Shown: positions 4,049 to 29,050, counted from the stretch's first letter. The stretch is 64,000 nt of DNA from Candidatus Saccharimonadales bacterium (GCA_038317055.1 JBBQBA010000002.1:266164-330163); one strand, 5' to 3'. Made by a program: numbers and translations. The notes: a model not told the origin generated them from the sequence alone.

Positions 4049-5719
4049 CTACTCAGCAGCACCGATAGATAAACCTTTAGTGGTGGGAACTGTCACCTTA
4101 TAGTAATCAACTCCGCCAATATTGGTGCCGAACACACTTGTTAAGTTAATGCCCGAGTTTTTGATTGGTGAACCACTTGCTGGTTGATAAGCTGTTAATT
4201 GTGTTGGGCTATAACCACCAGCAATCGTACCTCCACCACCAGCATTGTTAAGTTTGGGGTTGGAGGTTAGACCAATAGACACGCCATTTAATTTTTCTTG
4301 ACCTGTAGCTGACCGCCAAGAACTAATCGTATTATAGGTTTTTGTTCCCCAGTAAGCCGTAAATGTGTAGTAGTCATTTGATTGGAAATTAATTGTAGAT
4401 GTAGTTGTAGATCCAGTAACTATTACCGGGTAAGTACCACCAGTTGCTATAAGTATGTTATTACGCACATTAGTTAATCCGCTTCCAGTCAGATAGGCTT
4501 CAAAGCTAGAAGGTTTAGCTCCATTACTCGGAGTTATATATACCGTATTGTTATATATCGAATCTCCAGAAACATTACCATAAAGTTCAATGGCACCGTA
4601 GCTATTCTTTCTAGCATCATTCTGGCTAATATTAAATCGTATGGTGTTACCCTTATGGGCTTCGTTTGAAGACTCACCGAAAACGAGATAGCCTGAACCA
4701 TCATTATCGTGAGAGTAGTTATATTCAATAAATGAATTAGAGGTATTTTGATCTAAGTCAAATCCATCGCCATCTACTTTACCTCCAGTATGATTAGAAT
4801 AAGATTGATTGTATTCTATTGTGTCACCAGTGGAATCGTAAGCCCATATGCCAACAGCACAAGCGTTTGACTTACAATTTGCGCCATTATTGTATGCAAG
4901 CGATTGATATATTTTGGAATTCTTACTATTCCCAAGAACAATGCCACTTCCAGACCAAGTGGTTCCGGTTATACTGGAGTCTCCATAATTGTTATAGGCA
5001 GTAACTTTACTAACATTTACATTTTGATTAACATAAGTTGGACTCGCTGGGTTAAAGGTTGGACCGTAAGTTTGTAAACCAGCAATCTGATTATCATGAA
5101 AAGTTGAGTTGTTTACTGTAACATTACTAAATCCACTGCCTCCATTACCTCCCCCCATCAAGAAACCGTTTTTGAAGCCGTTCGCAGTAACATTATTCAC
5201 GGATACATAATTTAGTATCGTGTTATTGCTATCATCGTTATAGAAATTTAGGCCTGAACCAGTGTCATTACCAGCCCCAGAACCAACTATATTTAGATTA
5301 GATATGCTGATACCGGCAGCATCATAGGCAAGTATTCCGTTATTAGTACCAGTTTCTGAAAGGACAGCTTTTCCTGTTCCATAACTACTAATATTTATTG
5401 GAGATGTAGAAGTACCGCTTTCACCTGGAACAAAGTAAATTTGTCCACTAAATGTATCACCACCATTAAATAGTATGCTATCTCCTGGGTTAAAGTGAAC
5501 GGAATTTACGCGGGCAATTGTTTGCCATGAAGTTGATGGGCTAGTTCCGTTATTTGAATCTTTACCTGTTGAACTAACATAATAAGTCGTCCCGATCTGA
5601 GCTGCGTGGCTGGCAGTCATTACTCTTATTCCAACTAAAGCTATCAGAGCAATAACTATTATTGGAAGAAATATGTGATGGACGAAACCTTTAGAATTAA
5701 GTTTTACTTTTATTAACAT
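4049..5719 (-). CDS. secreted right-handed beta-helix (pectate-lyase fold) protein
   Basis: It has an N-terminal anchor/signal ending in SHAAQ, then TYYVSSTGKDSNNGTSPSTSWQTI...PGDSILFNGGDTF, then many N/G-rich beta-helix coils. Confidence 0.75.
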   Translation of the reverse strand: MLIKVKLNSKGFVHHIFLPIIVIALIALVGIRVMTASHAAQIGTTYYVSSTGKDSNNGTSPSTSWQTIARVNSVHFNPGDSILFNGGDTFSGQIYFVPGESGTSTSPINISSYGTGKAVLSETGTNNGILAYDAAGISISNLNIVGSGAGNDTGSGLNFYNDDSNNTILNYVSVNNVTANGFKNGFLMGGGNGGSGFSNVTVNNSTFHDNQIAGLQTYGPTFNPASPTYVNQNVNVSKVTAYNNYGDSSITGTTWSGSGIVLGNSKNSKIYQSLAYNNGANCKSNACAVGIWAYDSTGDTIEYNQSYSNHTGGKVDGDGFDLDQNTSNSFIEYNYSHDNDGSGYLVFGESSNEAHKGNTIRFNISQNDARKNSYGAIELYGNVSGDSIYNNTVYITPSNGAKPSSFEAYLTGSGLTNVRNNILIATGGTYPVIVTGSTTTSTINFQSNDYYTFTAYWGTKTYNTISSWRSATGQEKLNGVSIGLTSNPKLNNAGGGGTIAGGYSPTQLTAYQPASGSPIKNSGINLTSVFGTNIGGVDYYKVTVPTTKGLSIGAAE

Positions 5720-5783
5720 TTTTATTTTTAACTAATACCCTAGAATAGTACTTTTTTAGCTTAATATTCTCAAGCATACATAA

Positions 5784-5817
5784 TGTTCAGAACTTGGCAT
5801 ATAACTCTAGTTATAAG
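5784..5817 (+). repeat. intergenic cassette-boundary repeat, copy 10 (most degenerate)
   Basis: Sequence TGTTCAGAACTTGGCATATAACTCTAGTTATAAG. Confidence 0.4.
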
Positions 5818-5838
5818 AATTTTAAAATAGCTAGTTAT

Positions 5839-7236
5839 TTAATAAGGACTTACTTGTGCAAGATGAGTTTTGTAGTTTGACCCTTGGGGCGAGACAGTAC
5901 TGGCTGTACCATCATAATTCGACAATAGGCCATAGTTTGACCAATATTTAGCACCGTCACTAATATTTACCGAACACTGTGTAGCACTTGTGCCGGTTGG
6001 ATTCCATGTCCAGGCTAAGTATGATTCATTATTTTGATCAGCCCATGTCATATACATATTCATGAAGTTAACACTACAATCTGATTCGCCGAATTCATCA
6101 GTAACCACCGGTATACCAGCTGATGTAATTGGGTTTTGTTCTGCGTCCCAGTGAGGAATCCAGTAAGATGATGCTGGAATGCTGCCGTCAGAATAATTAT
6201 GGTAGGCGACTATTAGTTTATGGTTAGGATCTGTTGGCATATTTGCTAGCTCTGGGCAGGCTGCCGAACTACCAAATTTATTTATAACTCCACATGGATC
6301 ACTTGATCCTCTAATTCCACTTAATATTATGGGCTGAGAGGCTCCGGTAGCGCGAATTGTATTAACAAGCTGTTGCATTCCAGCGGTGTTATAAGTCACG
6401 GCAGGGTTTACGGGGCTTGTAGTGTTACCCGAAAAAGTTAAACTGCATCCATTTAGCCAGCAAGTCCAAGGTGGTGTAGTGGTTGTTGCATTTGGGTTTC
6501 CGATAAATGGCTCGTTAAAGAGGTCATACATGACAGCCGGATAAGATTTGAAGGTGGTCGCAACAGATGACCAGAAAGTAGGCGAATGATCTTGGTCAGC
6601 CATCCCCCACTGTTGAACAGTTAGTATATTGCCCGGAGCTGACCAATGTAGATCTATTATTGTATATATACCTGCATTATTAAGATCAGTCACCCAACTC
6701 TCAATAGCTGTTTGGTAAGCTTGGGCAGCTGCTGATCCAGTAAGAGTTACTGATTTACCATTTACAGTTGAACTTAATGAAACTCCATTTATTCCTAACC
6801 AACAGTCCTCATTAAGTGGAACTCTAACAGCATTGATTTTCCACGAAGCTATAGCTTCTGCTTCAGTACTATTTAGAGGCCTACCACCATTAATTGAATG
6901 AGTGGTACTACAGTATTCAGAGCCAGATACATTTGCCCCCAATAACCTAATAGTCTGTCCGTTTCCATTCACTAGGTGATTACCGTTTACACTTATAGAT
7001 AGAGGAGCTCCAAACTGTACCCCATGCCCATCTCTAGCGGTAGCATCATTAGTTATTGATGCTCCACCATTAAGCTTGCCTGTGTCAGCATTAACTGAAA
7101 CAAACGGTGATGCTGCATGAGATCCAATTAGAAAATGGACACCAATTATTGCAATAATAATTACTATAGCTATTTGACTGGCTGTTTTTATATTTTTATT
7201 GCTTTTCTTTTTTAGCTTTGTAGCTAGTTTTTTCAT
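5839..7236 (-). CDS. glycoside hydrolase family 5 (cellulase/mannanase-like), secreted
   Basis: Motifs NAVRVPLNEDCW, IIDLHW, MYDLFNEP (acid/base) and VVTDEFGE (nucleophile) are present. The signal ends in SHAAS. The ORF stays open up to a TTG at 7245. Confidence 0.8.
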   Translation of the reverse strand: MKKLATKLKKKSNKNIKTASQIAIVIIIAIIGVHFLIGSHAASPFVSVNADTGKLNGGASITNDATARDGHGVQFGAPLSISVNGNHLVNGNGQTIRLLGANVSGSEYCSTTHSINGGRPLNSTEAEAIASWKINAVRVPLNEDCWLGINGVSLSSTVNGKSVTLTGSAAAQAYQTAIESWVTDLNNAGIYTIIDLHWSAPGNILTVQQWGMADQDHSPTFWSSVATTFKSYPAVMYDLFNEPFIGNPNATTTTPPWTCWLNGCSLTFSGNTTSPVNPAVTYNTAGMQQLVNTIRATGASQPIILSGIRGSSDPCGVINKFGSSAACPELANMPTDPNHKLIVAYHNYSDGSIPASSYWIPHWDAEQNPITSAGIPVVTDEFGESDCSVNFMNMYMTWADQNNESYLAWTWNPTGTSATQCSVNISDGAKYWSNYGLLSNYDGTASTVSPQGSNYKTHLAQVSPY

Positions 7237-7318
7237 AAAAATCAATGACTAGTTAACTTATAGTTACGTTAGTATTAGCATAACATTAATAACTTCTGCT
7301 TGAGTTAGTCATTTTCTT

Positions 7319-7843: not shown

Positions 7844-7892
7844 TAAGCCTATTAAAGATATATTTTGGTCATATGGCGACTATATTATATAG

Positions 7893-8492
7893 TTGAAGAT
7901 AAATATGGGTAAAGATAGAGAATTAACAAGTAATACTCGCATTCTTTTTTTTGAAGTCGGAACACTGGGTTGTGCACCAAAGGATTTCGAAAAAAATTTA
8001 GCAGAGCGAAACCATGCAGAGTTAGTTAGTGCAAGTGAACCTTATAGCCCAATTCTACGTCCACCCGAAAGTGTACCGGTTCGACATATGTCTAAGGGTT
8101 TAACTAGATTAATTGGTCAAAAATGTATCAATGCAGTTTCGCATCATCTATCAAAAGATAGAGATGTAGTTTTCGATAGATTTGTTAACACACCACCATC
8201 ACGTCGTTTAATTGAAGAATTCGTATCGTTAGGTGACATTGCAACAGTTGCTCTAGATTTCACCTGTACACCTCGTGAAATAGTAAAGAAACGACTTAGT
8301 GCTGAAGCCGCTGAGAGCTCAGTTGCATATTCCACATGGATGATAGCTCAAGCAGTTGGTAACAGGGTAATTCGACCAACATTTGCCGAGCCAGTCGATA
8401 TAATAATCAGGTTAGATGGCAGTAACTCTACGCCGGATTTATTTGATCAAATTGAAGATGTTTTGGATATAAAAGGTCTTATTAACGATTAG
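7893..8492 (+). CDS. hypothetical protein
   Basis: A 199-aa ORF with a TTG start (an ATG lies at 7905), divergent from 7319..7843. I recognise no family. Confidence 0.5.
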   Translation: MKINMGKDRELTSNTRILFFEVGTLGCAPKDFEKNLAERNHAELVSASEPYSPILRPPESVPVRHMSKGLTRLIGQKCINAVSHHLSKDRDVVFDRFVNTPPSRRLIEEFVSLGDIATVALDFTCTPREIVKKRLSAEAAESSVAYSTWMIAQAVGNRVIRPTFAEPVDIIIRLDGSNSTPDLFDQIEDVLDIKGLIND

Positions 8493-9901
8493 CTACCACT
8501 CAGGCAAATTCGATAAACTGCTGAAATAGTCCAAGCTTGTCCTGGTTCGGGAATAGGCAGATTTCCCCCAGGGGAACGCAAACTAAAATAATGCAAAGCC
8601 TCAGCTTTGTCGTACCAAACCTTATTATCGCTATCTACATATGTAAACTCGCTGAATTCACCAGCTTTAACAACGCTATCAATAAGCTTTGATTCGAGAT
8701 TTTCGGCAAGTTCTATTCGGCCGTGATTTCTTAGCCCTTTAGCTATTTCATTAGTCTCTTTGTGCCAAACAGTATAAGTTCCATGATAATCAATAAATCC
8801 AGGTATAGACTCATGTCGAAGGGCTCTCGATCGTATTCCTGCATCGGTCATGAACTCTTTACTGCTAATCATCTCGGTAATTTTATTGACAAACATATCT
8901 CTTTTTTCGGGTGCTAAATTTTTAATTAGCTGGCTATTTAATATAAGTGCACCATTTGAGGTCAGACTATCGATCTGCCGATGTTCATCATTATCGTTAA
9001 AATCTAGGGCTTGGGCAAAATAGCCCACATCCTCCATCCAAAACCAATTGGTTACCCGCTCTGATATACCCGCCGCCATTGCTCGCCAATACTGTGCTTG
9101 TTCGTCATTTTCGGCAATTAATTTTGCACTATCAAGCAGTGCATCGTAGGTATAGCCTTGAATCTCAATTGAAGCTACACCCATATTAAAGTTAGGTAGT
9201 GATCCATCGCGGTGCAAATATCCGGTTCTAGAATCTTTCCATGCTTGATTCTCAATTCCATGAGGATTAATTCGCTTATATTCAATCAGTCCTAAACTTG
9301 ATTCATTTAACTTATAGCTAATCCAACCCATCGCAAAACGTAAGCTGTCTCTAATTTTATGGGTGTCATTATCCCGACCTTTGTAGGTTTCTTCTAAAAT
9401 TGAAACACCATGGATATTTACATATCGGCAAACTAAACGCACATACAGGGGAGTGGCATCGTAGCCACCATAGTAAATCATCATGTCTGAACCTTCGTTG
9501 CCCCATTGTCGCTGTAAGTTACGTAAGATTCCTAATGAGTACTCAGGTATTTGCACTCCGTCGTATTTTAGTGATCTAAACTCATGGTGAATCTTACCGG
9601 GTTCTTCTTCGGAATCATTATTTAAATTGAAGCCCTGCAACTTAGCCAACTCCAAAATGATGTCATGAACTAGCTGCTTATGAGTTGGCAGTAAATCATC
9701 GGCAAGTACAATTGAATCGCGCCCAAAAATAGCGTACTTAAAGTTAGGTCCATTGCTGGCAAAAACGCCCCAACCATCTGGTGCATCAACAATTCTTAGA
9801 TAATCTGGATTAGAAACAGCATTGGGATCACGAATGAACCGCTCTAGTTCAGATATCCTATCTTCGGTTTTTTTATTTGACCACTCATCTGCGAAATCCA
9901 T
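8489..9901 (-). CDS. amylo-alpha-1,6-glucosidase / glycogen-debranching (GDE_C) family protein
   Basis: It carries the FGRDSI motif and has an (alpha/alpha)6-type length and pattern. Confidence 0.7.
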   Translation of the reverse strand: MDFADEWSNKKTEDRISELERFIRDPNAVSNPDYLRIVDAPDGWGVFASNGPNFKYAIFGRDSIVLADDLLPTHKQLVHDIILELAKLQGFNLNNDSEEEPGKIHHEFRSLKYDGVQIPEYSLGILRNLQRQWGNEGSDMMIYYGGYDATPLYVRLVCRYVNIHGVSILEETYKGRDNDTHKIRDSLRFAMGWISYKLNESSLGLIEYKRINPHGIENQAWKDSRTGYLHRDGSLPNFNMGVASIEIQGYTYDALLDSAKLIAENDEQAQYWRAMAAGISERVTNWFWMEDVGYFAQALDFNDNDEHRQIDSLTSNGALILNSQLIKNLAPEKRDMFVNKITEMISSKEFMTDAGIRSRALRHESIPGFIDYHGTYTVWHKETNEIAKGLRNHGRIELAENLESKLIDSVVKAGEFSEFTYVDSDNKVWYDKAEALHYFSLRSPGGNLPIPEPGQAWTISAVYRICLSGS

Positions 9902-9924
9902 TTAAGGCTATGTTAGCATAAGAA

Positions 9925-10989
9925 CTACTTCTTATTAAGCTTTTTAGAACTGTTATCCATATTGATTACTTTCCGATAAGCCTTGAGATAATTCTTTGCC
10001 ATAATTCTTGCCGTAAAGTGCTCTTCAACATGAGCCCGACAGACAGCACGGTTGATCTTATCGATTAGTTTAACTTTTTTAGTTAGTTCAGCTATGTTCT
10101 CACAAGCGTATCCAACCTTAGCATCTTTAAAAATCTCCGGCATTGAACCTCGATTAATAGTAAGTACCGGTACACCGCAGGCCATAGCTTCAATATTAAC
10201 CAGTCCAAATGGTTCGTCCCATTGAATTGGCGAAATTAAAGCTTTAGCTTCACTGAGTATTTCGATTTTCTGTTTTTCAGCAAGTTCACCTAAGTAATTT
10301 ATATTTTTCCCGTTAATTAGAGGTTTAATTACATTACGAAAATATATTCTATCTGGCGGATCTACTTTAGCCACAATAATTAATTTCTGATGAGTAGCTT
10401 TGGCTATCGCAATTGCTTCCTCGATTCCTTTATCCGGATTAATCCTACCTAGGAATATTAAATAGTTTTTGGGTTTAGGGTTAAATTTAAACTTTTCAAT
10501 GTTTATTCCGTTATAAACCGTTGCTGCATAATGAAGGCTAGGTGAGAGTCGACGCTGTGAATTAGAAATACTAATAAAATATTGTTTAGCATAGGCTTTA
10601 TCTAAATACGCCGGAACTGGATTATGCAAGGTAGTAACTACTGGGTCACGTAAGAACTGTTTAACCAAAGTAAAAGGTTCATCCATATTGCTATGAATGA
10701 TGTCGTAGCGCGTATTTTTTAGTTTCTTGTTTACAAAATAGACAGCTTCAATTTGTTTAGCAAACCAATCTCTTGGTTTAAAAGCTATTAGACTTCGAAC
10801 AGGTAGGTCGGTAATAGGAATTAGGTTAGCACTAGTGACGGAATCTCCAGTTGCAAACAGATCGACTTCATGACCCAGCGCCACTAATTCTTCGGCGAGA
10901 TTAAATACAACCCTCTCAGTGCCACCATACTTTTTGGGAGGTACGCTCTCTTCAATAGGTGCAAGTAAAGCAATTTTCACCTTAAACAA
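9925..10989 (-). CDS. glycosyltransferase family 4
   Basis: Motifs GGTERVV and the EX7E region EPFGLVNIEAMACGVPV are present. Confidence 0.85.
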   Translation of the reverse strand: MFKVKIALLAPIEESVPPKKYGGTERVVFNLAEELVALGHEVDLFATGDSVTSANLIPITDLPVRSLIAFKPRDWFAKQIEAVYFVNKKLKNTRYDIIHSNMDEPFTLVKQFLRDPVVTTLHNPVPAYLDKAYAKQYFISISNSQRRLSPSLHYAATVYNGINIEKFKFNPKPKNYLIFLGRINPDKGIEEAIAIAKATHQKLIIVAKVDPPDRIYFRNVIKPLINGKNINYLGELAEKQKIEILSEAKALISPIQWDEPFGLVNIEAMACGVPVLTINRGSMPEIFKDAKVGYACENIAELTKKVKLIDKINRAVCRAHVEEHFTARIMAKNYLKAYRKVINMDNSSKKLNKK

Positions 10990-11069
10990 ATACCCTTATA
11001 AGTAAACCTCTACCAGTTAAGTATAAAAGTTACTTAACCATGGAAGTACTTTTAATATAGTTTATCCGA

Positions 11070-11100
11070 AGTAAAACGACAATCTTATCGTCGTTTTTTT
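11070..11100 (-). terminator. putative rho-independent terminator overlapping the 3' end of 11085..11696
   Basis: The stem AAACGAC/GTCGTTT has a 9-nt loop and T-runs on both strands. Confidence 0.4.
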
Positions 11101-11696
11101 CTATTTCGCCAGGATTTAAAAAGCTGAAATACACCGATTGTTTTTTTTGGATCTTCTGATACTTTGAGTTCTGGTACTTCTTGAGGTACATATTCAGTTT
11201 TATTATCGTCAACCCATATTTCTGGAACGGCTCTAGGTGCACTTTTATGCTTAAAGATTAGATGTGCTTCTTGTTCATAGATGTAGTTTCCATTATCAAG
11301 TCTTATAATTTTAATTCCATGCTTACTAGCACTTTCTTGGTCGGACCTAATAACCGTACCGACATGTAGATAAGTTCCAGTCGAAATCTCTTCAAGATAT
11401 GGGGTCATGTGTACATGAACTCTCATATTTAATTCTTCAGTCTTCTGGGGCGGCTGAGTATAAGCCCTTAGATCTTCGCCGGCGACAATTATCATATCGT
11501 TTTCCAGTTTAGAGATGGCTTTTTTACCATTAACGTCAAAACGTAGTATTGTGCCTTGGAGATTATCAACTCCGTCGGCAGTCACAACATTTACATCAAT
11601 TCGCTCACCTACAAATGTGCTTTGAAGTGGAAATGTGTTATTTGTTGGTCGCAGTATATTATATGTCGTCTCATACATAGAACGAATATTATACAA
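11085..11696 (-). CDS. hypothetical protein
   Basis: A 203-aa ORF with a basic C-terminus. I recognise no family. Confidence 0.55.
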   Translation of the reverse strand: MYNIRSMYETTYNILRPTNNTFPLQSTFVGERIDVNVVTADGVDNLQGTILRFDVNGKKAISKLENDMIIVAGEDLRAYTQPPQKTEELNMRVHVHMTPYLEEISTGTYLHVGTVIRSDQESASKHGIKIIRLDNGNYIYEQEAHLIFKHKSAPRAVPEIWVDDNKTEYVPQEVPELKVSEDPKKTIGVFQLFKSWRNRKKRR

Positions 11697-11726
11697 TATT
11701 ATTGCGCTTTTTCGTAACTTATTTAT

Positions 11727-11920: not shown

Positions 11921-13096
11921 TTAGAAGCTGAATGTTTGGGCTGGCGCACTAGCTTGATACAGAGAACTTGAGTAAACCTGTTGAAAAGCTGCTAGAGAAT
12001 TGGGACTAGAATCAATTGGATAACTATAGCTAGTTGATCCACTAGAATCAAAATAATTTATAGCTTTTATATGAGGAAAAGATGTCGGAATAGCTTTGAG
12101 GTAAGCATCTGTAACCCACTCTGCTTTTGAACTCGGAGCAAAAGCTAAACCGCTATATTCTAATGTACCCGTCTCAGCGATAATTACAGGTCTTTTAGTT
12201 AATGCAACTATATCGTTATAACCTGGTGTAAAGATTTTGGTAAATGAAGATGGATTTGTAGAATTTTTATTATATCCGTCCATAGAGGCCCAACTAATGT
12301 TACTATCCCCTGGATAATATGAATCTACATTAGCTATCGATGTGCCACTTGAAAAACACCAAATAAATTGTACGTTTGTTGCTCCAGCTTGTTTAAATAA
12401 TTGAACGACATGGTTATATGCAGCAACATACATTTGAGGAGTATTAGTATATGGGTAATTTCCAGTCGGTGAGGTAGGGTCAAGTTGATTATTCGAAAGG
12501 GGAGTGGAGTTTGCAGCTACGTTTCCCCAAGGATACCAATTACCGTTAAATTCATGCATAAGTCTCAAATAAATAGGGTGATTTACGGCTTTTGCGCTTT
12601 GAGCCCAAGCTGTAATATAACTATCTTCACTTCCGTTAGACATGCTCGTCAAGACGCTAGTGGTTTTATAAGAACTCAGATTTGCCTGCCAAGTAATCAT
12701 TGGTGTAGAACCCATAGAAATTATGTTATTTACATTAGTTAGCGGAAATTTTTCTGGCACTCCATTAAATTCCCAACCATAAAAAGCATTTATTAATTTA
12801 GGTGTTACACCAATTTGGTTTATGGCATTTTGCAAATTTGAAAGTGGAGTATTTAGGCCAATCGTAATGCCAGCTGGTGGAGATAAATTTCCAAACTGAA
12901 CTGCTCTTCCATTCGAAGCATTACTATCCTGGGTAGCTATGGCTGGTGAGGTGAGAGATCCAGATTCAGCTTGAATGGTGACATAAGAAGAAAGTGCATG
13001 GATGCTTATTAATAAACTAACACCGACCACAGTTATTATCGCGATTATTAATATACCAGCGACTTGTTGTTTGTTAAATTTTTTAATATTAGACAC
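11921..13096 (-). CDS. glycoside hydrolase family 26 (beta-mannanase-like), secreted
   Basis: The YLRLMHEFNGNWYPWG motif is present, and the N-terminal anchor ends in IHALS. Confidence 0.7.
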   Translation of the reverse strand: MSNIKKFNKQQVAGILIIAIITVVGVSLLISIHALSSYVTIQAESGSLTSPAIATQDSNASNGRAVQFGNLSPPAGITIGLNTPLSNLQNAINQIGVTPKLINAFYGWEFNGVPEKFPLTNVNNIISMGSTPMITWQANLSSYKTTSVLTSMSNGSEDSYITAWAQSAKAVNHPIYLRLMHEFNGNWYPWGNVAANSTPLSNNQLDPTSPTGNYPYTNTPQMYVAAYNHVVQLFKQAGATNVQFIWCFSSGTSIANVDSYYPGDSNISWASMDGYNKNSTNPSSFTKIFTPGYNDIVALTKRPVIIAETGTLEYSGLAFAPSSKAEWVTDAYLKAIPTSFPHIKAINYFDSSGSTSYSYPIDSSPNSLAAFQQVYSSSLYQASAPAQTFSF

Positions 13097-14363: not shown

Positions 14364-14897
14364 ATGAAAAAACTAATAAGCATGTTTGCAACAGTGGCTG
14401 TAGGTATGAGCCTTGCTGTAAGTGGAGTCGCCGCAGCTGACTCTATAACTAACACGGGCCCAGGCTCAACTAACACAATCGACACTTCACAAACAAGTGA
14501 TACAAGCATAGATTGTAACAACAACATTAACAGTAGTAACTCTAACCCACAGAGTTCAAGTACTGGTTCTGGAACAACAAACGAAAACACATCAGGTGGA
14601 AGTGCAACTTCTGGTAATTCTAGTAACAACAGTTCAACAGACGTAACTGTAAACACAAATTGTGGTTCAGCTATGACTGCAAGTTCTACCCCAGCTGGAA
14701 AAGGTGCAGGATCAACTACTCCAACACCAACACCAGCACCAGCAGCAACTCCACAAGTTGTCGCGCCAACTGGTAGCGTTCATGCAGGTGGCGGCGCCGG
14801 AGTAAAAACTTCAAATCTTGCTGCTCTAGGTCTAGTAGGATCAGTTAGTGCACTTGGTCTTGGATTAGTAGCACGTAAAACTGCACTATTTCGATAA
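14364..14897 (+). CDS. secreted S/T/N-rich surface protein with an LPXTG-like (VAPTG) C-terminal sorting signal
   Basis: It has the signal peptide MKKLISMFATVAVGMSLAVSGVAAADS, and a C-terminus with VAPTG, then a hydrophobic stretch, then ARKTALFR. Confidence 0.7.
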   Translation: MKKLISMFATVAVGMSLAVSGVAAADSITNTGPGSTNTIDTSQTSDTSIDCNNNINSSNSNPQSSSTGSGTTNENTSGGSATSGNSSNNSSTDVTVNTNCGSAMTASSTPAGKGAGSTTPTPTPAPAATPQVVAPTGSVHAGGGAGVKTSNLAALGLVGSVSALGLGLVARKTALFR

Positions 14898-14961: not shown

Positions 14962-15777
14962 ATGAATATTTGGCGAGCCAAATACTATAAATTCAATATT
15001 AGCCAAAATCGAAAAGTATTAATTACTATTCGCCGGTTCAAGACTGCCAAAATAAATCGTTCAAAGAAGTTTAGTCAGATAGTAATACCGTTTGAAATCG
15101 GTAAGATCAAAGAGTTCTCGTTCAGACTTCATCAGACTAAAAGACGTAGTCGAAAACAAAAAGAACTAACAACCTTGCAACGATTTACTCCAACTCCTGC
15201 GAGCGTACTTATTACACTGGGTTTAATTGGAACAATAGTATTTGGCATACAAATAAGCTCAAGTCATGCTCTTGAACCGACCAAAACTTTCTCAACCACT
15301 AAACAGGTGGCGCCGGTCAAATCATTGCCGGCGTCCGTTCCAACAAATATATCTATACCATCTGTTAATATAGATTATCCAATCATTACAGTTGGACTAG
15401 ATACTGCTGGTGCTATCCAGTTGCCACCAGTACTGTCCTGGAATACAGGTTGGTATAATGGAAGCCCTACTCCTGGACAAATTGGACCCTCAATAATAGT
15501 TGGACATGTCGATAGTTATCAAAATATCTCAGTATTTTGGCGTCTACGTTATGTTCAGCCAGGTGCGTTAATTTATATCAAACGAACAGATGGAACTACT
15601 GTCACGTTTAAAGTAACCGATTTAAAGCAATTCGACCAAAGTGCGTTTCCAACGGCAGAAGTATATGGCAATATAAAATATCCGGGACTTCGCCTAATTA
15701 CCTGTGGTGGAACATTTGATTCTCAATCTGCAAGCTATTCGCAAAATACAGTAGTATTCGCAACTATAGTAGATTAA
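14962..15777 (+). CDS. sortase family protein (class E/F-like), no Arg downstream of the catalytic Cys
   Basis: It carries the His motif SIIVGHVDS and the Cys motif LRLITCGG. The tail TFDSQSASYSQNTVVFATIVD contains no Arg. Confidence 0.75.
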   Translation: MNIWRAKYYKFNISQNRKVLITIRRFKTAKINRSKKFSQIVIPFEIGKIKEFSFRLHQTKRRSRKQKELTTLQRFTPTPASVLITLGLIGTIVFGIQISSSHALEPTKTFSTTKQVAPVKSLPASVPTNISIPSVNIDYPIITVGLDTAGAIQLPPVLSWNTGWYNGSPTPGQIGPSIIVGHVDSYQNISVFWRLRYVQPGALIYIKRTDGTTVTFKVTDLKQFDQSAFPTAEVYGNIKYPGLRLITCGGTFDSQSASYSQNTVVFATIVD

Positions 15778-16245: not shown

Positions 16246-16899
16246 ATGAAGAAAATTCTTTCTCAGATTAAAAACAGAAAAATAAGTAATGCTCAACTAG
16301 TTAGTCTAGTTAGTATCACTTTACTTGCAATTGGACTCGTAATTGTATTACCTTCGCTTTATTTTAGGTGGAATAACACTGGTACGGCATCAGCTAATCC
16401 GATAACTGCGAGTCAGGTATGGTCAAAAGTTAACTCAGAAGCTAAACCAACCACAAATCAAGTAAAGGTAACTGGATTTCCTATATCTATATCGATTCCA
16501 GGGTCTCGACCAGCCCTAAATATTTACGATCAAGTTATTCCTGGTTATTATAATAAAAACAGTGGTCAGTGGACTCTAAGCGGCAAGGCAGCTCAATTTG
16601 CTGTGATATCTAGTCAACCTAATAACATTTCTGGAAATACTTTTATTTATGGTCATTATAATCCATATGTGTTTGCATACTTACATTTAATTACCCCAGG
16701 TACAGTTGCTACTATTACAACTGACAATGGCTATGAATTTAGCTATAAGTTTGTAAATACATATACAGTCCAGCCAACTGATACTAATGTTCTAAACTAC
16801 AGTGGATCACCAATCTTAACAGTTCAAACATGTTCAGGTGCTTTTTTCCAAAACCGACAAATGTTTGTATTTAGCTTCGAAAGCTATAAGAAAATATAG
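16246..16899 (+). CDS. sortase family protein
   Basis: It has an N-terminal TM anchor, the His motif FIYGHYN, the Cys motif LTVQTCSG, and Arg in FQNRQMFVF. Confidence 0.8.
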   Translation: MKKILSQIKNRKISNAQLVSLVSITLLAIGLVIVLPSLYFRWNNTGTASANPITASQVWSKVNSEAKPTTNQVKVTGFPISISIPGSRPALNIYDQVIPGYYNKNSGQWTLSGKAAQFAVISSQPNNISGNTFIYGHYNPYVFAYLHLITPGTVATITTDNGYEFSYKFVNTYTVQPTDTNVLNYSGSPILTVQTCSGAFFQNRQMFVFSFESYKKI

Positions 16900-17066: not shown

Positions 17067-18422
17067 TTATATCTTTGCTGTATCTTTAAGTGCACTTGTA
17101 CTAATTGCATAACGACGACCTTCGGTTGCCCAACCTTCAGTTTGAGCAAGGAATTTACGAAATACTACTACTTCAACGAAAGCAGCTATAAATAGGCACA
17201 ATTCAAACCAACGAAGAAAATAGAAGTAGGGTAGTGACGCGATGATGGTCCAGCGCTTAATAACTATGGTAGAGAAGATAGCCAATACAATTACAGCCAT
17301 AAAATCACCAAGAATAAGCGTAGGAAGAACTACCCAACGTCCAGTCGTGTAGATAATAAATGGTATGAAGATTAGGATCTCAAACAGATACAGAAATACC
17401 TGTATCATTGAGTAGGCAATACCAATGTCCAAAGGGTGAAGTTTGAGACCGACTTTATATTTCATTGCACACTGGAAAAATCCTCGTTGCCACCTCATTG
17501 TTTGTTTAGAGAAGTCTCTCAGTGTTTGAGGGTCTTGGGTATAATTAACGGCTCGGGTTATAAAGTGAACTTTACCTAGTTTTTTACGGTGCACTTGATA
17601 GGTGAGATCAAGGTCTTCAGCTAGAACTTTAGAGTTAAAGTCTAGATCTTTAATGATGTCTGTTCTAAACGAGGTAAGCGGTCCAGGGAATACAGATATC
17701 ATTCCAAACCAAGATTGCCATCGACGAGTTAGATGTTGAGCATATGTGTAACAAAAAGCCCGATAATGAGCTATCCAGTTACCGCGCATACTTTGAATAA
17801 AACCGATTGCGACTGCATATTCTTTAGAGTTAGAAAGTTCTTTTCGATAAATTCTAAAATAATCTTCACCGAAAATACTATCTGCGTCAGAAACATGAAC
17901 CCAAAGATACCTTTTCTCGATCTCAAAATGTCCTATAGCGCTAAATATAGCTTTTGCTTTTCCACTTCTTTCAACACTTAAGATATTTTTCTTACCTAGT
18001 GCAGCAATAACCAATTTTCGGGTGTTATCATCTGAATTATCATCGACTACAAATATATCTTCTTTTTTCATACCGGCTCGAATTGCTGAAGCGATAGTAG
18101 CGCTAATAATTAATTCTTCGTTGTGCGCAGGTAGAAGTAGGGCTAATTTCTTTCGACGTGTAACTTTCTGAGTTTTAGTAGTCTTAGTAACCTTTTTAAC
18201 AGCTTTTTCAACAATTATATTGCGATTAGTAGTAAGATTAATGGTTTTTCTAGAGTTGAATTGAGTACGAGATGGGGTAATAGTAGTCCTAGGAACCGTT
18301 ATAGAAGCCCTAGGAGCAGTAATTACAGCTCTGGACGTTACGATATCAGATCGTGGCGTTTTAATACTAGAACGTTCTAATATGATTGGGGCATGTCGTT
18401 TAAATCGTCTAAATATTCTCAT
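17067..18422 (-). CDS. processive family 2 glycosyltransferase (cellulose/chitin-synthase-like)
   Basis: Motifs LLLPAHNEE, SDADS and the Q-x-x-RW motif (QTMRWQRG) are present, followed by C-terminal TM helices. The N-terminus has short tandem ITxPR-type repeats. Confidence 0.85.
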   Translation of the reverse strand: MRIFRRFKRHAPIILERSSIKTPRSDIVTSRAVITAPRASITVPRTTITPSRTQFNSRKTINLTTNRNIIVEKAVKKVTKTTKTQKVTRRKKLALLLPAHNEELIISATIASAIRAGMKKEDIFVVDDNSDDNTRKLVIAALGKKNILSVERSGKAKAIFSAIGHFEIEKRYLWVHVSDADSIFGEDYFRIYRKELSNSKEYAVAIGFIQSMRGNWIAHYRAFCYTYAQHLTRRWQSWFGMISVFPGPLTSFRTDIIKDLDFNSKVLAEDLDLTYQVHRKKLGKVHFITRAVNYTQDPQTLRDFSKQTMRWQRGFFQCAMKYKVGLKLHPLDIGIAYSMIQVFLYLFEILIFIPFIIYTTGRWVVLPTLILGDFMAVIVLAIFSTIVIKRWTIIASLPYFYFLRWFELCLFIAAFVEVVVFRKFLAQTEGWATEGRRYAISTSALKDTAKI

Positions 18423-18572
18423 TCTTGTCTCGGTTGAGGAAATATATTTTTCCGCAATTAATAAACAATACTATAACTGATTTTGTACTTTTTTGCAAGT
18501 TCTTTATGTAATATAGTATTTGTTTGCTAATATCTCAAAGTTCTTATCCTGTAATACTGCAATGAAATAGGA

Positions 18573-18599
18573 TTGACAGCATATCAATTTTAGTATAAT
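18573..18599 (+). promoter_or_regulatory. sigma70-type promoter (TTGACA-15-TATAAT)
   Basis: TTGACA lies at 18573-18578 and TATAAT at 18594-18599, 11 nt upstream of the ATG at 18611. Confidence 0.45.
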
Positions 18600-18610
18600 G
18601 TATTTTCATT

Positions 18611-20032
18611 ATGGTTATTACTGAGGCCCAGCCTAAGCCTTTAGATTTAATTTGCCCCGATGAACTAACTACACGTGATGGCATTGTAAATGCTATGCAA
18701 AATTTAGTTAGTAGCGACATGTCCGGTGAAGAGCAAATTGATCATCTAAAAAACTTAACCGAAAGACTTATTGCTGTTACGGGAGATGTTGCAGTAGATG
18801 AATATGACCGATATAGTAAAACTAGCGAGCGTGGTCTACAGCTTCCTCATCAAAAACTTTTCGAACAACTTGAAGATAAATCAGTAATTGTCACTGGTGG
18901 AACTGGTTTAATAGGCTCAAAATTAATACCACTTATAAAAGGTTACAATCCTAGAAGAATAGTTAGCCTAAGCCGTGGAATTACAACTCCCATGGAACAA
19001 ATAGAAGGCGTTGAATATCATAATGTAGATATTAGAAACGCCGATAAATTAAAAGTTAGTATCGATACAATCTCACCGGATGTTGTGTATCATTTAGCTG
19101 CTCAACGACTACCTGATTTAGCCGAAACTGAAGTAAATCGAACTGTTACCACGAATGTTGACGGAACAAAGAACATTATTGATGCCTTAACAAATGCTGG
19201 TGTAGATCAATTGATTTACGCTTCTACCGGTAAAACACTACGACCATTTTCGCCCGATGTTTATGCAGCATCTAAACAATTTACTGAGGCAATACTTGCT
19301 CAAGCGTCTTCTGAATCGCCAATTCAAATTTCTGCTGGTAGATTTACACACGTAGTGGATGGTTCAAATATTATTCGAAAATTAGCTTCATGGATTGAAA
19401 ATGGTGAAGTAATCGACATTCATGACCCTAACAGCGTGATGTACGTTCAATCTGCCCGAGAAGCAGCCATGTTACTTCTAATTGCTGGAGTAGATAAGAA
19501 ACCGGACGTATTGAACATTCATGCTATTAGAGATTTAGGCTACCATATTAATACCGCCAATGTTGCTATTGGAGCATTAATTAAGATGGGTGGAAAATCT
19601 CCAATACGATTTACTGGATATAGTTCAGGTTACGAAGAAGAGGCATATCACGGACTGTTTCACCCTCGTACCTCACTCGATATAAGTCCGCTAATAAATC
19701 AGCATGAAGCAGAAGCCGCAAAACCGTCTGTATTATGTGAAGAAGTTGATGTATTTCCATTTCAAGTTGGTGATCTTAGTGTTTTTAATGAATACGTTGA
19801 ACTGCTTAAAGAAGCTTGTAATAATGATATGGACTCAGGCTTTATTAAAGAATTAATGGCCGAAGTATCATGGGCTTTATGGGATGCAAAAATTGATGCA
19901 ATGCCGCCGCTTGCTGTACTTAAGGCAGCTAAAAAAGCAGCAAATATTCGAAGTCATCCAATAGCTAGCACTAACAAACATCATTTTCGAACAGACCAAG
20001 CATTTATAGATAAAGCTATATTATTAAGCTAA
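18611..20032 (+). CDS. NAD-dependent epimerase/dehydratase (polysaccharide biosynthesis, CapD-like)
   Basis: It has the Rossmann motif VIVTGGTGLIGS and the YxxxK motif (YAASK). Confidence 0.8.
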   Translation: MVITEAQPKPLDLICPDELTTRDGIVNAMQNLVSSDMSGEEQIDHLKNLTERLIAVTGDVAVDEYDRYSKTSERGLQLPHQKLFEQLEDKSVIVTGGTGLIGSKLIPLIKGYNPRRIVSLSRGITTPMEQIEGVEYHNVDIRNADKLKVSIDTISPDVVYHLAAQRLPDLAETEVNRTVTTNVDGTKNIIDALTNAGVDQLIYASTGKTLRPFSPDVYAASKQFTEAILAQASSESPIQISAGRFTHVVDGSNIIRKLASWIENGEVIDIHDPNSVMYVQSAREAAMLLLIAGVDKKPDVLNIHAIRDLGYHINTANVAIGALIKMGGKSPIRFTGYSSGYEEEAYHGLFHPRTSLDISPLINQHEAEAAKPSVLCEEVDVFPFQVGDLSVFNEYVELLKEACNNDMDSGFIKELMAEVSWALWDAKIDAMPPLAVLKAAKKAANIRSHPIASTNKHHFRTDQAFIDKAILLS

Positions 20033-24629: not shown

Positions 24630-24636
24630 TTTAGTT

Positions 24637-24999: not shown

Positions 25000-25024
25000 A
25001 ATACATACGATACAACTTTTTTAA

Positions 25025-26737: not shown

Positions 26738-26798
26738 TAGCTATATTATATAGCTTTTGAAACTATCTTTTAGCTGCAGATAAACTTAAGACTAACTA

Positions 26799-27995
26799 TT
26801 ACGCTTCAATAAAAGTAATGGCGTATCCGGTTTTACCGGCACGACCAGCTCGACCGATTCGGTGAACATAGTCAGTATAAGTTTGAGGAGTTGAGTAGTT
26901 AATTACATGCGTAATGTCACTAACATCAATTCCACGAGCGGCAACATCAGTTGCAACTAAGATATTAATCTGACTAGACTTAAATCGGTTAAGAGCACGT
27001 TGTCTTTGACCCTGGCTTTTTCCACCATGTATAGCATCAGCTGAAAAGCCGCGGGCTATAAGATCATTACTAAGTCGCTCAACACTTCGTTGAGTTTCAT
27101 CAAAGACTAGAACTTTAGAAACTTTTTCATCAATAAGTAAGTCATGAAGCTTGTCAGCTTTTTGAGACTTAGATGAATAAGTAACGACGTTTTGGTCAAC
27201 AGAATCTGTTGTATCACCACTCTTTACAGATATGGTTACTGGTTCTTTAGAAAAAGCACTGATTAGCGCATTCACTTTGTGATCAAGTGTTGCTGAGAAA
27301 AAGAAAGACTGACGTTCTGGGGCTAGCAATCCTAAGATTGTTCGCATATCGTCAACAAAACCCATGTCTAGCATTCGGTCAACTTCATCTAGCACAACTA
27401 GATTGAAATCATTGACTTTTAAGCTGCCTCGTTCTAAATGATCTTTAATTCGGCCAGGTGTACCAATTACGATACGTGGACGAAAACTTAGATCTCTAAG
27501 TTGAGGACCCATTGGTGTTCCACCAATAAGTACAGCACCAAAAAGTCCACTGTTTTTAGCAAGACTTCTGATTTCATCTTCTATTTGTTGAGCTAACTCA
27601 CGAGTTGGAGCCATGATCAAAACTTTAGAAGTTTTATCAGTTAGAAGTTTTTGAAGAACAGGTATTGCAAGGGCAATTGTTTTACCAGTACCAGTATTAG
27701 CAATACCAATTACATCTTGACCACCAAGTCCTACTGGAATTGACTGATCTTGAATTGGTGAAGGTATAGTATAGCCTTTAGCATCAATGTTAGTCTGCAG
27801 AATTCGCTCTAGTTCAAAGTCATGAAATGTATGCTTTGAAACATATGGCGTTGCTTCTGTTACTTGCTTAGCTGCTTTAATAAAGCGCGAAGGGTTAATA
27901 TTTTCTTTACTTCCACGTCGGTTATTATTCCTTTGTGAATGATAAGATTGGTAGCGACCTCTTTGAGATCGACTATTATAAGAGTTATATGGCAT
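26799..27995 (-). CDS. DEAD-box ATP-dependent RNA helicase
   Basis: Motifs ANTGTGKT, PTRELA, VLDEVD, SAT and HRIGRAGRAG are present. The ORF stays open to 28052, but the ATG at 27993-27995 (MPYNSY) is more plausible. Confidence 0.9.
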   Translation of the reverse strand: MPYNSYNSRSQRGRYQSYHSQRNNNRRGSKENINPSRFIKAAKQVTEATPYVSKHTFHDFELERILQTNIDAKGYTIPSPIQDQSIPVGLGGQDVIGIANTGTGKTIALAIPVLQKLLTDKTSKVLIMAPTRELAQQIEDEIRSLAKNSGLFGAVLIGGTPMGPQLRDLSFRPRIVIGTPGRIKDHLERGSLKVNDFNLVVLDEVDRMLDMGFVDDMRTILGLLAPERQSFFFSATLDHKVNALISAFSKEPVTISVKSGDTTDSVDQNVVTYSSKSQKADKLHDLLIDEKVSKVLVFDETQRSVERLSNDLIARGFSADAIHGGKSQGQRQRALNRFKSSQINILVATDVAARGIDVSDITHVINYSTPQTYTDYVHRIGRAGRAGKTGYAITFIEA

Positions 27996-28171
27996 AAAAA
28001 AAGAATCCTTTATGTGTTTAAAATTATTACATCGACTGTCGGCAATGAACATCGAGTAACATCTCTAAAACACCCGGATTCACTGAAACAATAGCTCTAT
28101 ATTAGCATAAATATTATTAAAATACAAGGGTAATCTTTATAAACGTATCAATAACAACTTCTGTGAAAAAT

Positions 28172-29050
28172 CTATATTGTTTTCAAAAATTCCAAAGCTA
28201 GAGCAGGATTACCGGTTCCACATTTAGGGCAATATGTAGATTGTTTAGGTATATTTAACCAATAGCCGTTAACGTACTTCTGGGTTTGTCTAAAGTCATT
28301 TCTTAATTGGGCTAGAGTTACTGCTCCGGCGCTGGGTTCACTGCTAAGTCCTGCGAATATTGCGCCGTGTTTACCGGCATTAATCTGTGCAGCTGCTTGT
28401 TGAACAAAAGTCTTAAATTGTGGTGTTCCTTCTAAGTCTTGAGATTGAAACTCAATAGCGTCTACATATGGTGCTGTCTGACCTAGAATATTAAGTGCTA
28501 GAAAGGCATCAAATCTATTTTTATTTCCCGGAGATAAAACATTAGCTAAGTTAGCAGCTGGAGTAAACACTATCTTATAACCGTTTGCTCGTGCCAATGT
28601 TGCAGCTTTTTTAGCATATAATACGGGATTTTGCTGTTCGATTACCGGAGTAAATGTCCAGTTCTCGTTATCATACAATATTGCGCCTACACTGGGGTTT
28701 ATCTGCTTGTTAGCAATTGCTGTCTGAAGTGTTGCATAACTAGTAAAGGTTTGAGTATTTACTGCATTAGGAAATCCTGAGTTATCTCCATTTGAAACAT
28801 AGTAAGTTCTACTGTTATTAAATATTGAACCTAGCAACTGAGGTGAAGCATTGACTGACCGTAGCTGATTATAGGCTCCACGACCTATGATCCACTGTGT
28901 AGAATAGCTTTTTATAGGGGCAGCGTGACTTTCAAATATAACTCTTGCGCCGACTAAACTAATCACAGCAATTATTGCCAGAAGTCCGAAAATTTCAATA
29001 TGACCAAAGCCGAAACTGTTTTTGAATATTTTTATTTTATGTATTTTCAT
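28172..29050 (-). CDS. secreted hypothetical protein
   Basis: The N-terminal anchor ends in SHAAP. I recognise no catalytic motif. Confidence 0.55.
   Translation of the reverse strand: MKIHKIKIFKNSFGFGHIEIFGLLAIIAVISLVGARVIFESHAAPIKSYSTQWIIGRGAYNQLRSVNASPQLLGSIFNNSRTYYVSNGDNSGFPNAVNTQTFTSYATLQTAIANKQINPSVGAILYDNENWTFTPVIEQQNPVLYAKKAATLARANGYKIVFTPAANLANVLSPGNKNRFDAFLALNILGQTAPYVDAIEFQSQDLEGTPQFKTFVQQAAAQINAGKHGAIFAGLSSEPSAGAVTLAQLRNDFRQTQKYVNGYWLNIPKQSTYCPKCGTGNPALALEFLKTI

What the first reader, a model, noticed from the sequence alone, without database searches (positions are those of the whole stretch)
4049..29050. Four secreted enzymes share a conserved N-terminal leader with fixed spacing G-x7-H-A-(A/L)
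The N-termini of four proteins (beta-helix, start at 5719; GH5, start at 7236; GH26, start at 13096; unknown secreted protein, start at 29050) end their hydrophobic segment with the same pattern. The segments are ALVGIRVMTASHAAQ, AIIGVHFLIGSHAAS, TVVGVSLLISIHALS and SLVGARVIFESHAAP. Gly and His are exactly 8 positions apart in all four, and each is preceded by a Lys-rich n-region. The lipase (start at 57406) has a looser version, LIGAISKIKTAHKQ. This is more conserved than a generic signal peptide needs to be, which suggests a dedicated sorting or cleavage signal for exo-enzymes. GH5 and GH26 also share a ~35-aa module just after it: (F/Y)V(S/T)(V/I)(N/Q)A(D/E)(T/S)G.L....A....D..A..G..VQFG.
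Basis: seen in the sequence. Interest (0 to 1): 0.55.

Follow-up and report, generated by a model that had tools for sequence, protein, structure and literature searches.

The report
Conserved secretion leader on Saccharimonadales exo-enzymes
Four secreted enzymes in this Saccharimonadales (candidate phyla radiation) genome carry the same 35-45-residue N-terminal export leader, which belongs to a small uncatalogued family related to type IV pilin leaders; it most likely acts as a signal peptide cut after Ser-His-Ala, but cleavage is untested.

Summary
G-x7-H-A occurs four times in all long ORFs of the window, each time at the end of an N-terminal hydrophobic segment. 0.13 such hits are expected there by chance. 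A leader profile built without the window sequences scores these four genes at 15-46 bits and everything else at 5.6 bits or less. The lipase is not a member.

The leader is a discrete family. It has 57 significant N-terminal hits among 1.84 billion protein representatives, sits on about 28 unrelated cargo types (mostly glycoside hydrolases, lyases and peptidases), and was absent from 1.4 Mb of control DNA. No Pfam or NCBIfam model covers it.

Ala(-1), Ser(-3) and Gly(-10) are near-invariant, and His(-2) is sometimes Arg, Asn, Tyr or Phe. That fits a type I signal-peptidase site, S-H-A|x. Leaders within one genome are saturated at synonymous sites, so the motif is kept by selection, not recent duplication.

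A subclass that includes two window genes keeps a prepilin-like "LNxKGFxH" start and aligns with the lineage's pilin N-termini (hhalign 96.5%). The same genome uses short ordinary signal peptides on its likely sortase substrates.

No dedicated peptidase or sorting machine was found, and none could be excluded. The shared 35-residue module is real and usually accompanies one leader subclass.

The parts
5603..5719 (-). Leader of the beta-helix protein (gene 4049-5719), residues 1-39: MLIKVKLNSKGFVHHIFLPIIVIALIALVGIRVMTASHA | AQ. Subclass 2: prepilin-like 'KGFVHH' start, no module.
   Evidence: Translation; G30 at nt 5632; 26.3 bits with an HMM trained without window sequences; Pfam Beta_helix on the cargo; the cargo is homologous to L101/L104 proteins that carry the subclass 1 leader.
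7114..7236 (-). Leader of GH5 (gene 5839-7236), residues 1-41: MKKLATKLKKKSNKNIKTASQIAIVIIIAIIGVHFLIGSHA | AS. Subclass 1.
   Evidence: 45.6 bits; about 25 GH5 orthologs keep the leader; AlphaFold2 puts a helix at residues 2-40, ending at His40, and residues 41-50 have pLDDT below 50.
7009..7113 (-). Post-leader module of GH5, residues 42-76: ASPFVSVNADTGKLNGGASITNDATARDGHGVQFG.
   Evidence: Aligned with 26 other modules in A8, with invariant G12, A18 and F34. Strands 59-63 and 71-75 lie in residue blocks with mean pLDDT of 61-83. Best PDB match is the N-terminus of CBM35 (2wz8) at E 0.15, not significant.
12995..13096 (-). Leader of GH26 (gene 11921-13096), residues 1-34: VSNIKKFNKQQVAGILIIAIITVVGVSLLISIHA | LS. 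Subclass 1, with Ile instead of Ser at -3.
   Evidence: 33.9 bits; Pfam GH26.
12890..12994 (-). Post-leader module of GH26, residues 35-69: LSSYVTIQAESGSLTSPAIATQDSNASNGRAVQFG.
28922..29050 (-). Leader of the unknown secreted protein (gene 28172-29050), residues 1-43: MKIHKIKIFKNSFGFGHIEIFGLLAIIAVISLVGARVIFESHA | AP. Subclass 2, with 'FG|FGHIE', a complete G/F+1/E+5 prepilin-like motif.
   Evidence: 14.9 bits without window training and 29.3 bits with it; no Pfam, NCBIfam or PDB relative for the cargo.

Best explanation
The four N-termini belong to a discrete, homologous family of secretion leaders found in a clade of Saccharimonadales (Patescibacteria/CPR).

Anatomy:
- a Lys/Arg-rich n-region;
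- about 14 hydrophobic residues;
- an invariant Gly at -10;
- an interface residue (Tyr, His or Arg) at -8;
- a short c-region, h-L-h-x-S-H-A.

Inferred mechanism. The leader inserts through SecYEG with its N-terminus in the cytoplasm. A type I signal peptidase then cuts after Ala(-1), that is S-H-A | (A/Q/D)-(S/T)-P. This releases degradative exo-enzymes that have no cell-wall anchor.

Origin. The leader appears to descend from the lineage's type IV pilin-like (class III) N-terminus. Subclass 2 still starts 'MKKLNQKGFxH', whereas subclass 1 has lost the Gly-Phe site and is usually followed by a roughly 35-residue module.

What is shown: that the family exists, that it is discrete, the pattern of conserved positions, the diversity of cargo, the selection acting on it, and its similarity to pilin leaders.

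What is inferred: Sec dependence, cleavage after SHA, and which peptidase does it.
For: 1. Real and discrete. There are four hits in the window and none elsewhere, and an independent HMM gives 15-46 bits against 5.6 or less. In 0.41 Mb of Saccharimonadales DNA, 47 ORFs score 23-66 bits, followed by a gap down to 8.3 bits. In 1.4 Mb and 4413 ORFs of control loci the best score is 8.6 bits.

2. Present in public data. 57 proteins reach E<=1e-3 among 1.84e9 representatives, and about 53 of them match within the first ~46 residues.

3. A site that fits signal peptidase I. Among 96 non-redundant leaders, Ala(-1) is 96/96, Ser(-3) is 92/96, and His(-2) is 82/96 with Arg, Asn, Tyr, Gln or Phe as substitutes. 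Pro is never the commonest residue at +1, and Pro at +3 is 74/96. In subclass 2, conservation stops at the SHA|x junction. Tyr, His or Arg at -8 in 72/96 leaders limits the buried core to about 15 residues, which is signal-peptide length.

4. Structure prediction. AlphaFold2 places a helix at residues 2-40 ending at His40, followed by a low-confidence linker at 41-50.

5. Cargo. 81 proteins fall into 29 BLAST-distinct mature regions, one of which is a false hit. Pfam families include GH5, GH26, GH16, GH39, GH114, Vgb lyase, Peptidase_A4 and Peptidase_M15_4. The window cargos have no C-terminal anchor, whereas the two genes next to sortases have short ordinary signals plus a C-terminal TM and basic tail.

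6. Selection. Leaders within one genome are 43-61% identical in DNA in the window (up to 71% in related loci), and most conserved residues use different codons.

7. Pilin origin. Subclass 2 leaders against the lineage's pilin-like N-termini give hhalign probability 96.5%, E 1e-9, over 29 columns. Some GH5 orthologs carry a true GFTLLE prepilin leader instead.
Against: - No cleavage data exist, and SignalP could not be run.
- Counting Gly and Tyr, the hydrophobic stretch reaches 20-21 residues, long enough for an uncleaved membrane anchor.
- Conservation of Gly(-10), Leu(-6), Ala(-13) and His(-2), with a roughly 90-100 degree periodicity, goes beyond what Sec or signal peptidase I are known to need. 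It hints at a specific helix-helix partner.
- His at -2 has no known role in SPase I recognition.
- The invariant Gly and His of 'GFxH' in subclass 2 suggest that end is also under selection. That could mean prepilin-peptidase processing.
- The same genomes have ordinary signal peptides, so this leader is not simply the lineage's default.
Confidence: 0.55

Rival explanations
1. Uncleaved signal-anchor. The leader is a permanent N-terminal transmembrane helix that keeps the enzymes on the cell surface of a tiny episymbiont. The conserved helix face mediates association with other membrane proteins.
For: A 20-21-residue hydrophobic run. AlphaFold2 models one continuous helix over residues 2-40. 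Conservation has helical periodicity. The lineage's pilin-type GH5 fusions show that enzymes here can be membrane- or pilus-tethered.
Against: Invariant Ala(-1) and near-invariant Ser(-3), with conservation ending at that junction, is the signature of a cleavage site, and an anchor has no need for it. A charged or aromatic residue at -8 shortens the buried core to about 15 residues. The sortases in the window are expected to be membrane-anchored, and they do not match the leader profile.
Confidence: 0.2
2. A dedicated sorting route. The leader would be recognised by a specialised peptidase or by the type IV pilus / type II-like machinery. Subclass 2 would be cut by prepilin peptidase at KG|F. 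This would route exo-enzymes across the Gram-positive-like wall separately from wall-anchored proteins.
For: The class is discrete and coexists with ordinary signals in the same genomes. It is homologous to pilin leaders. Gly and His are invariant in 'GFxH' in subclass 2, and the unknown protein has a full G/F+1/E+5 motif. Conservation exceeds generic needs. Known precedents for conserved signal peptides tied to special routes include YSIRK, KxYKxGKxW and SipW-cognate signals (established knowledge).
Against: No peptidase or other conserved neighbour was found near leader genes (a limited test). Subclass 1, which includes GH5 and GH26, lacks the Gly-Phe site, so prepilin peptidase cannot be the shared factor. 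Pfam N_methyl does not recognise the leaders. Glu+5 is missing in all but one.
Confidence: 0.2
3. No special function. The similarity is left over from recent duplication or gene conversion of an N-terminal cassette within a paralogous family.
For: Leader genes occur in tandem in L113 and L096. The L096 pair shares 20/24 leader residues and 71% DNA identity. Leader plus module behaves like a cassette placed in front of different cargos.
Against: In the window, copies are only 43-61% identical in DNA, and 0-5 of 6-16 conserved residues use the same codon. Gly, Ser, His and Ala are nevertheless kept. Orthologs only 42-57% identical in the enzyme part keep the motif.
Confidence: 0.05

Closest known systems
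Ordinary Sec (class I) signal peptides of Gram-positive bacteria, cut by type I signal peptidase
   Same: Basic n-region, hydrophobic core, a helix-breaking Gly, small residues at -3 and -1, a tolerant -2, a length of 34-43 residues, and cargo made of secreted hydrolases.
   Different: Ordinary signal peptides share no detectable sequence homology. This leader aligns without gaps over about 37 residues and can be found by HMM in 1.84 billion proteins. It has fixed Gly(-10)/His(-2) spacing.
Type IV prepilin (class III) leaders, including archaeal 'bindosome' sugar-binding proteins that use them
   Same: Subclass 2 starts 'MKKLNQKGF...', like the lineage's pilins. hhalign gives 96.5%. A Gly lies 17-19 residues after Phe+1. 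GH5 orthologs exist with either leader type.
   Different: Glu+5 is absent in all but one. Gly-1/Phe+1 is absent in subclass 1. Pfam N_methyl does not match. A new S-H-A site sits at the outer end of the helix.
YSIRK-G/S signal peptides of staphylococcal and streptococcal surface proteins
   Same: A conserved motif with fixed spacing inside a Sec signal peptide, marking a subset of exported proteins in a monoderm.
   Different: The motif and its position differ (n/h boundary there, c-region here). YSIRK marks LPXTG wall-anchored proteins, whereas this leader marks proteins without such an anchor.
SipW-cognate signal peptides (TasA/TapA class, TIGR04088)
   Same: A recognisable signal-peptide class linked to particular secreted cargo.
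   Different: No NCBIfam hit, and no dedicated peptidase gene found nearby.
Conserved leaders of variable lipoprotein families (for example Mycoplasma Vlp)
   Same: One conserved leader placed in front of divergent mature regions.
   Different: Those are lipoprotein signals kept similar by recent paralogy. Here there is no lipobox, and same-genome copies are old and saturated at synonymous sites.

Membership tests
Sec / type I signal-peptidase signal peptide | Positively charged n-region followed by a hydrophobic h-region | tested here: met
   Three to nine Lys residues precede the hydrophobic run in all four. Hydropathy is 2.8-3.1 over 15 residues.
Sec / type I signal-peptidase signal peptide | Small uncharged residues at -3 and -1, and no Pro at +1 | tested here: met
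   Ala(-1) 96/96 and Ser(-3) 92/96. Position +1 is Ala, Gln, Asp, Ser or Glu.
Sec / type I signal-peptidase signal peptide | Actual cleavage and Sec dependence | not testable with these tools
   This needs N-terminal proteomics or reporter fusions. SignalP was not available.
Type IV prepilin (class III) signal | Gly at -1 and Phe/Met at +1 at the n/h boundary | tested here: inconclusive
   Present in the beta-helix protein (KG|FVHH), the unknown protein (FG|FGHIE) and the GH16 just upstream. Absent in GH5 and GH26.
Type IV prepilin (class III) signal | Glu at +5 | tested here: not met
   Found only in 28172-29050, out of 11 subclass 2 leaders.
Type IV prepilin (class III) signal | Match to Pfam N_methyl (PF07963) | tested here: not met
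   No hit at E<=10 for the leaders. The true pilin-type GH5 leader scores 19.8 bits and the window pilin scores 20.6 bits.
Type IV prepilin (class III) signal | Homology of the N-terminal segment (bears on descent, not on membership) | tested here: met
   hhalign probability 96.5%, E 1e-9, 29 columns. Hydrophobic composition may inflate this.
Lipoprotein (class II) signal | Lipobox with an invariant Cys at +1 | tested here: not met
   There is no Cys near the site. Gene 61257-61907, by contrast, has 'FMAGC'.
Tat signal | Twin-arginine S/T-R-R-x-F-L-K motif | tested here: not met
   The n-regions are Lys-rich with no RR.
SipW-cognate, YSIRK and KxYKxGKxW signal classes | Match to the NCBIfam/TIGRFAM models, or to the motif | tested here: not met
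   No NCBIfam hit on the N-termini at E<=1, and the motifs are absent on inspection.
Sortase substrate | C-terminal sorting motif, then a TM segment and a basic tail | tested here: not met
   None of the four has a C-terminal TM segment. Genes 14364-14897 and 32308-33756 do.
Rhomboid substrate | Recognition motif with hydrophobic P4 and P2' around a small P1 (recalled from the literature) | tested here: not met
   P4 is Gly, Ser or Ala and P2' is Ser or Thr. No rhomboid gene was sought beyond the Pfam scans.

The most novel reading that the evidence does not exclude
The leader could be a true sorting signal. It would be a pilin-derived export tag that a specific membrane partner recognises through its conserved helix face (Ala -13, Gly -10, Leu -6, Ser -3, His -2). 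That partner could be a specialised peptidase or the type IV pilus / type II-like apparatus. The tag would give monoderm CPR bacteria a dedicated route for releasing host-degrading or polymer-degrading exo-enzymes, separate from the route used by sortase-anchored surface proteins.
Probability: 0.2. Interest if true: 0.75.

Novelty: new variant of a known kind. Interest (0 to 1): 0.5.

Why it matters
Saccharimonadales and other CPR bacteria live attached to hosts and depend on what they export, yet their secretion biology is almost unstudied.

- **Annotation.** A sequence tag that can be searched with an HMM would let the exo-enzyme set of these uncultured organisms be listed directly from metagenomes, including the many cargos with no known domain. 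It is absent from Pfam and NCBIfam as tested here.
- **Evolution.** The pilin connection suggests how a class III leader can turn into a class I leader.
- **Secretion biology.** If a specific partner exists, it would be a new protein-sorting step in a monoderm.
- **If it is only a stereotyped signal peptide**, it is still useful for annotation and for designing secretion tags, but it is not a new mechanism.

Tried and rejected
- **Leader-only searches in the 5.8-billion-protein word-indexed database.** The word prefilter does not suit short hydrophobic queries. The index-free search worked.
- **Genome-collection scan with the window's class II aminoacyl-tRNA synthetase** (40051-41358, not scanned against Pfam). 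One search returned loci from many phyla at 55% identity or less, not close relatives. I used them as a 1.4 Mb negative control.
- **Phage search.** Irrelevant.
- **Metagenome scan.** The narrower A7 gave 25 loci, all of subclass 1.
- **Lipase and sortase as 'loose' members.** Rejected by score.
- **Taxon names from cluster look-ups.** Almost none were returned. One member is labelled Dormibacteraeota and one pilin-type GH5 is labelled Actinomycetota, both in MAG bins, so I did not rely on them. The Saccharimonadales assignment rests on the names of P0025 and P0086 and on Patescibacteria being the best matches of the tRNA synthetase.
- **Module against the PDB.** Only a non-significant match to the N-terminus of CBM35.
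- **Unknown cargo 28172-29050.** No Pfam, NCBIfam or PDB relative.
- **Regex search for SPase I boxes B, D and E and for the prepilin-peptidase motif in 0.41 Mb.** Nothing found. This is a weak test.
- **Literature.** No description of this leader. A 2026 preprint on Ca. Mycosynbacter pili (10.64898/2026.03.03.709456) reports only generic SignalP-predicted Sec signals in a related CPR bacterium.


Full report
**1. The observation**

Pfam confirms a right-handed beta-helix protein (4049-5719), a GH5 cellulase-family enzyme (5839-7236), a GH26 (11921-13096) and a protein with no known domain (28172-29050).

Each begins with a Lys-rich stretch followed by a hydrophobic run. That run ends in G-x7-H-A, at G30/H38, G32/H40, G25/H33 and G34/H42 respectively.

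In all six-frame ORFs of 80 aa or more, G-x7-H-A occurs only at these four places, always 29-36 residues after the preceding stop. Composition predicts 1.7 occurrences anywhere and 0.13 within residues 21-50. None of 500 shuffles gave four.

A profile built from leaders found elsewhere, without the window sequences, ranks the four genes first at 45.6, 33.9, 26.3 and 14.9 bits. The next ORF, the lipase, scores 5.6 bits. The lipase is therefore not a looser version, and the sortase with 'SSSHALE' is not a member either.

A fifth member lies just upstream of the window, on a Logan contig from the same sequencing run that overlaps the window start. It is a GH16 with 'NNFGFTHHILLPVIVITLIAFVGVRVILASNA|AS'.

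**2. The organism**

The GH5 is identical to a protein on a 333-kb NCBI contig. Its full-length relatives are named Candidatus Saccharimonadales. The window's class II aminoacyl-tRNA synthetase matches Patescibacteria best.

The window also encodes a type IV pilin-like protein and three sortases, which fits a Gram-positive-like CPR cell.

**3. The leader is a discrete, homologous family**

About 25 GH5 orthologs (42-57% identical in the enzyme part) keep 'h-region-G-[VT]-x-h-L-h-x-S-H-A-x-[ST]-P-Y'. Actinobacterial GH5 homologs do not.

A 32-column leader-only profile was searched against 1.84 billion representatives with no word index. It found 57 proteins at E<=1e-3, and about 53 of them match within the first ~46 residues. 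These, together with leaders in fetched loci, align without gaps over about 37 residues.

In 0.41 Mb of window plus related loci, 47 ORFs score 23-66 bits and the next scores 8.3. In 1.4 Mb and 4413 ORFs of control loci from other phyla, including other Patescibacteria, the maximum is 8.6 bits. No Pfam or NCBIfam model covers the leader.

**4. Cargo**

81 leader proteins fall into 29 BLAST-distinct mature regions, one of which is a false positive.

Pfam finds GH5, GH26, GH16, GH39, GH114, GH_cc, GHL15, Vgb lyase, Peptidase_A4, Peptidase_M15_4, a PQQ propeller, cohesin and inhibitor I36. Most cargos have no family.

The beta-helix cargo of the window occurs elsewhere behind the other leader subclass, so leaders and cargos have been recombined.

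**5. Position-specific pattern**

Among 96 non-redundant leaders:
- Ala(-1) 96/96
- Ser(-3) 92/96
- Gly(-10) 88/96
- Leu(-6) 82/96
- His(-2) 82/96, replaced by Arg, Asn, Tyr, Gln or Phe
- Tyr, His or Arg at -8 in 72/96
- Pro(+3) 74/96

This is the -3/-1 rule of type I signal peptidase with a tolerant -2 (established knowledge). The polar or aromatic residue at -8 limits the buried core to about 15 residues.

In subclass 2, conservation stops at SHA|x. AlphaFold2 of the GH5 (58-sequence alignment, mean pLDDT 87.5) gives a helix over residues 2-40 that ends at His40, followed by a low-confidence linker at 41-50.

Against a purely generic reading, the leader carries roughly 48 bits of information. 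Its conservation also shows a periodicity of about 90-100 degrees, meaning one helix face is conserved.

**6. Selection, not recent copying**

Leaders within the window genome are 43-61% identical in DNA. Only 0-5 of the 6-16 identical residues use the same codon. One tandem pair in a related locus (L096) is closer, at 71%. The conserved positions have therefore been held by selection over long divergence.

**7. Two subclasses and a pilin link**

Subclass 1 includes GH5 and GH26. Elsewhere it typically reads '...NQTKRTxQITxxLVVLIVAGIGTYLLxGSHAATPY', and it is usually followed by the module.

Subclass 2 includes the beta-helix protein, the unknown protein and the GH16. It starts 'LNxKGFxH', with invariant Gly and His, and it lacks the module.

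The lineage's pilin-like N-termini start 'MKKLNQ(K/L)GFTxxE' and have a Gly 17-19 residues after Phe+1. Some of them are fused to GH5 orthologs. Profile-profile comparison of subclass 2 with these N-termini gives 96.5% probability and E 1e-9 over 29 columns. Hydrophobic bias may inflate this, but the shared n-region is explicit.

Glu+5 is absent except in the unknown protein ('FG|FGHIE'), and Pfam N_methyl does not match. I infer that the leader descends from a class III leader that gained an outer S-H-A site and, in subclass 1, lost the Gly-Phe site.

**8. Context within the genome**

The same genome uses other signal types:
- Short ordinary signals on two genes directly upstream of sortases (14364-14897 and 32308-33756). 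Both also have a C-terminal TM segment and a basic tail.
- An ordinary signal on a polysaccharide deacetylase.
- A lipobox-like 'FMAGC' on 61257-61907, and a prepilin leader on 2833-3378.

The leader therefore marks a subset of exported proteins: degradative enzymes with no wall anchor.

No signal peptidase, prepilin peptidase or other recurrent neighbour was seen in the annotated loci or by motif search. This test is limited, because whole genomes could not be fetched.

**9. The module**

The 35 residues after the leader in GH5 and GH26, '(S/T)P(Y/F)xSxxA(D/E)xGxLxxxA...VxFG', recur in 66 of the proteins gathered. They come in a two-Cys variant and an 'ASxG' variant.

AlphaFold2 predicts two strands (59-63 and 71-75), in residue blocks with mean pLDDT of 61-83. 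The best PDB match is the first strands of a CBM35 (2wz8) at E 0.15, which is not significant. Its role is unknown. It is too short to be a complete CBM.

**10. Verdict**

The most likely reading is a stereotyped, pilin-derived, cleavable Sec leader cut after S-H-A (confidence 0.55).

Two rivals remain open at about 0.2 each: an uncleaved anchor, and a dedicated recognition route. Recent paralogy is largely excluded.

It is a new variant of a known kind, conserved-motif signal peptides, and I found no description of it in the literature searched.

Noticed in passing
P0027, P0036, P0039, P0041, P0052 (GH5 homologs): GH5 catalytic domains fused directly to a true prepilin-type leader (KGFTLLE...G[WY]Fx[WY]) through a Ser/Thr/Pro/Asn-rich linker. 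These are enzyme-pilin fusions, reminiscent of archaeal bindosome proteins.
   Followed up: partly
window 14364-14897, 14962-15777, 16246-16899, 32308-33756, 33757-34419: Three sortase genes. The genes directly upstream of two of them have short ordinary signal peptides and a C-terminal TM segment with a basic tail, for example '...IAAPDTGSQYNPPKILLYGSMVVITGAAIGIRHTYLSYRRK'. They are likely sortase substrates with non-canonical sorting motifs.
   Followed up: partly
window 44778-46955 and 48129-50279: Two paralogous multi-TM proteins of about 720 aa that share 'GGMxYxIxKHKLFDI'. Small ORFs with response-regulator-like N-termini lie nearby (47023-47412 and 52914-53294, not scanned). They may be membrane sensors.
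   Followed up: no
L113 7220-8464 and 9962-11170; L096 9217-10677 and 10735-12201: Tandem pairs of leader-plus-module genes in related metagenomic contigs. The L096 pair is the only case with high leader DNA identity, at 71%.
   Followed up: partly
window 4049-5719 compared with L101 1078-2544 and L104 99-1568: The same beta-helix cargo carries a subclass 2 leader without the module in the window, and a subclass 1 leader with the module in other genomes. Leaders have been exchanged between orthologous cargos.
   Followed up: partly
window 60083-60982 (+), overlapped by ORF 60064-60387 (-): A Thr/Pro-rich low-complexity ORF ending in long poly-Thr runs, with no Pfam family. The antisense ORF is probably spurious.
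   Followed up: no
window 62854-63486 (-): A protein with an EndoU_bacteria nuclease (toxin-type) domain, according to the precomputed Pfam hits on the source contig.
   Followed up: no
window 8489-11696 and 17067-20032: Glycan-related genes interleaved with the leader-bearing hydrolases: an MGH1-like GH, a GT4, a GT2 and a Polysacc_synt_2 epimerase/dehydratase.
   Followed up: no
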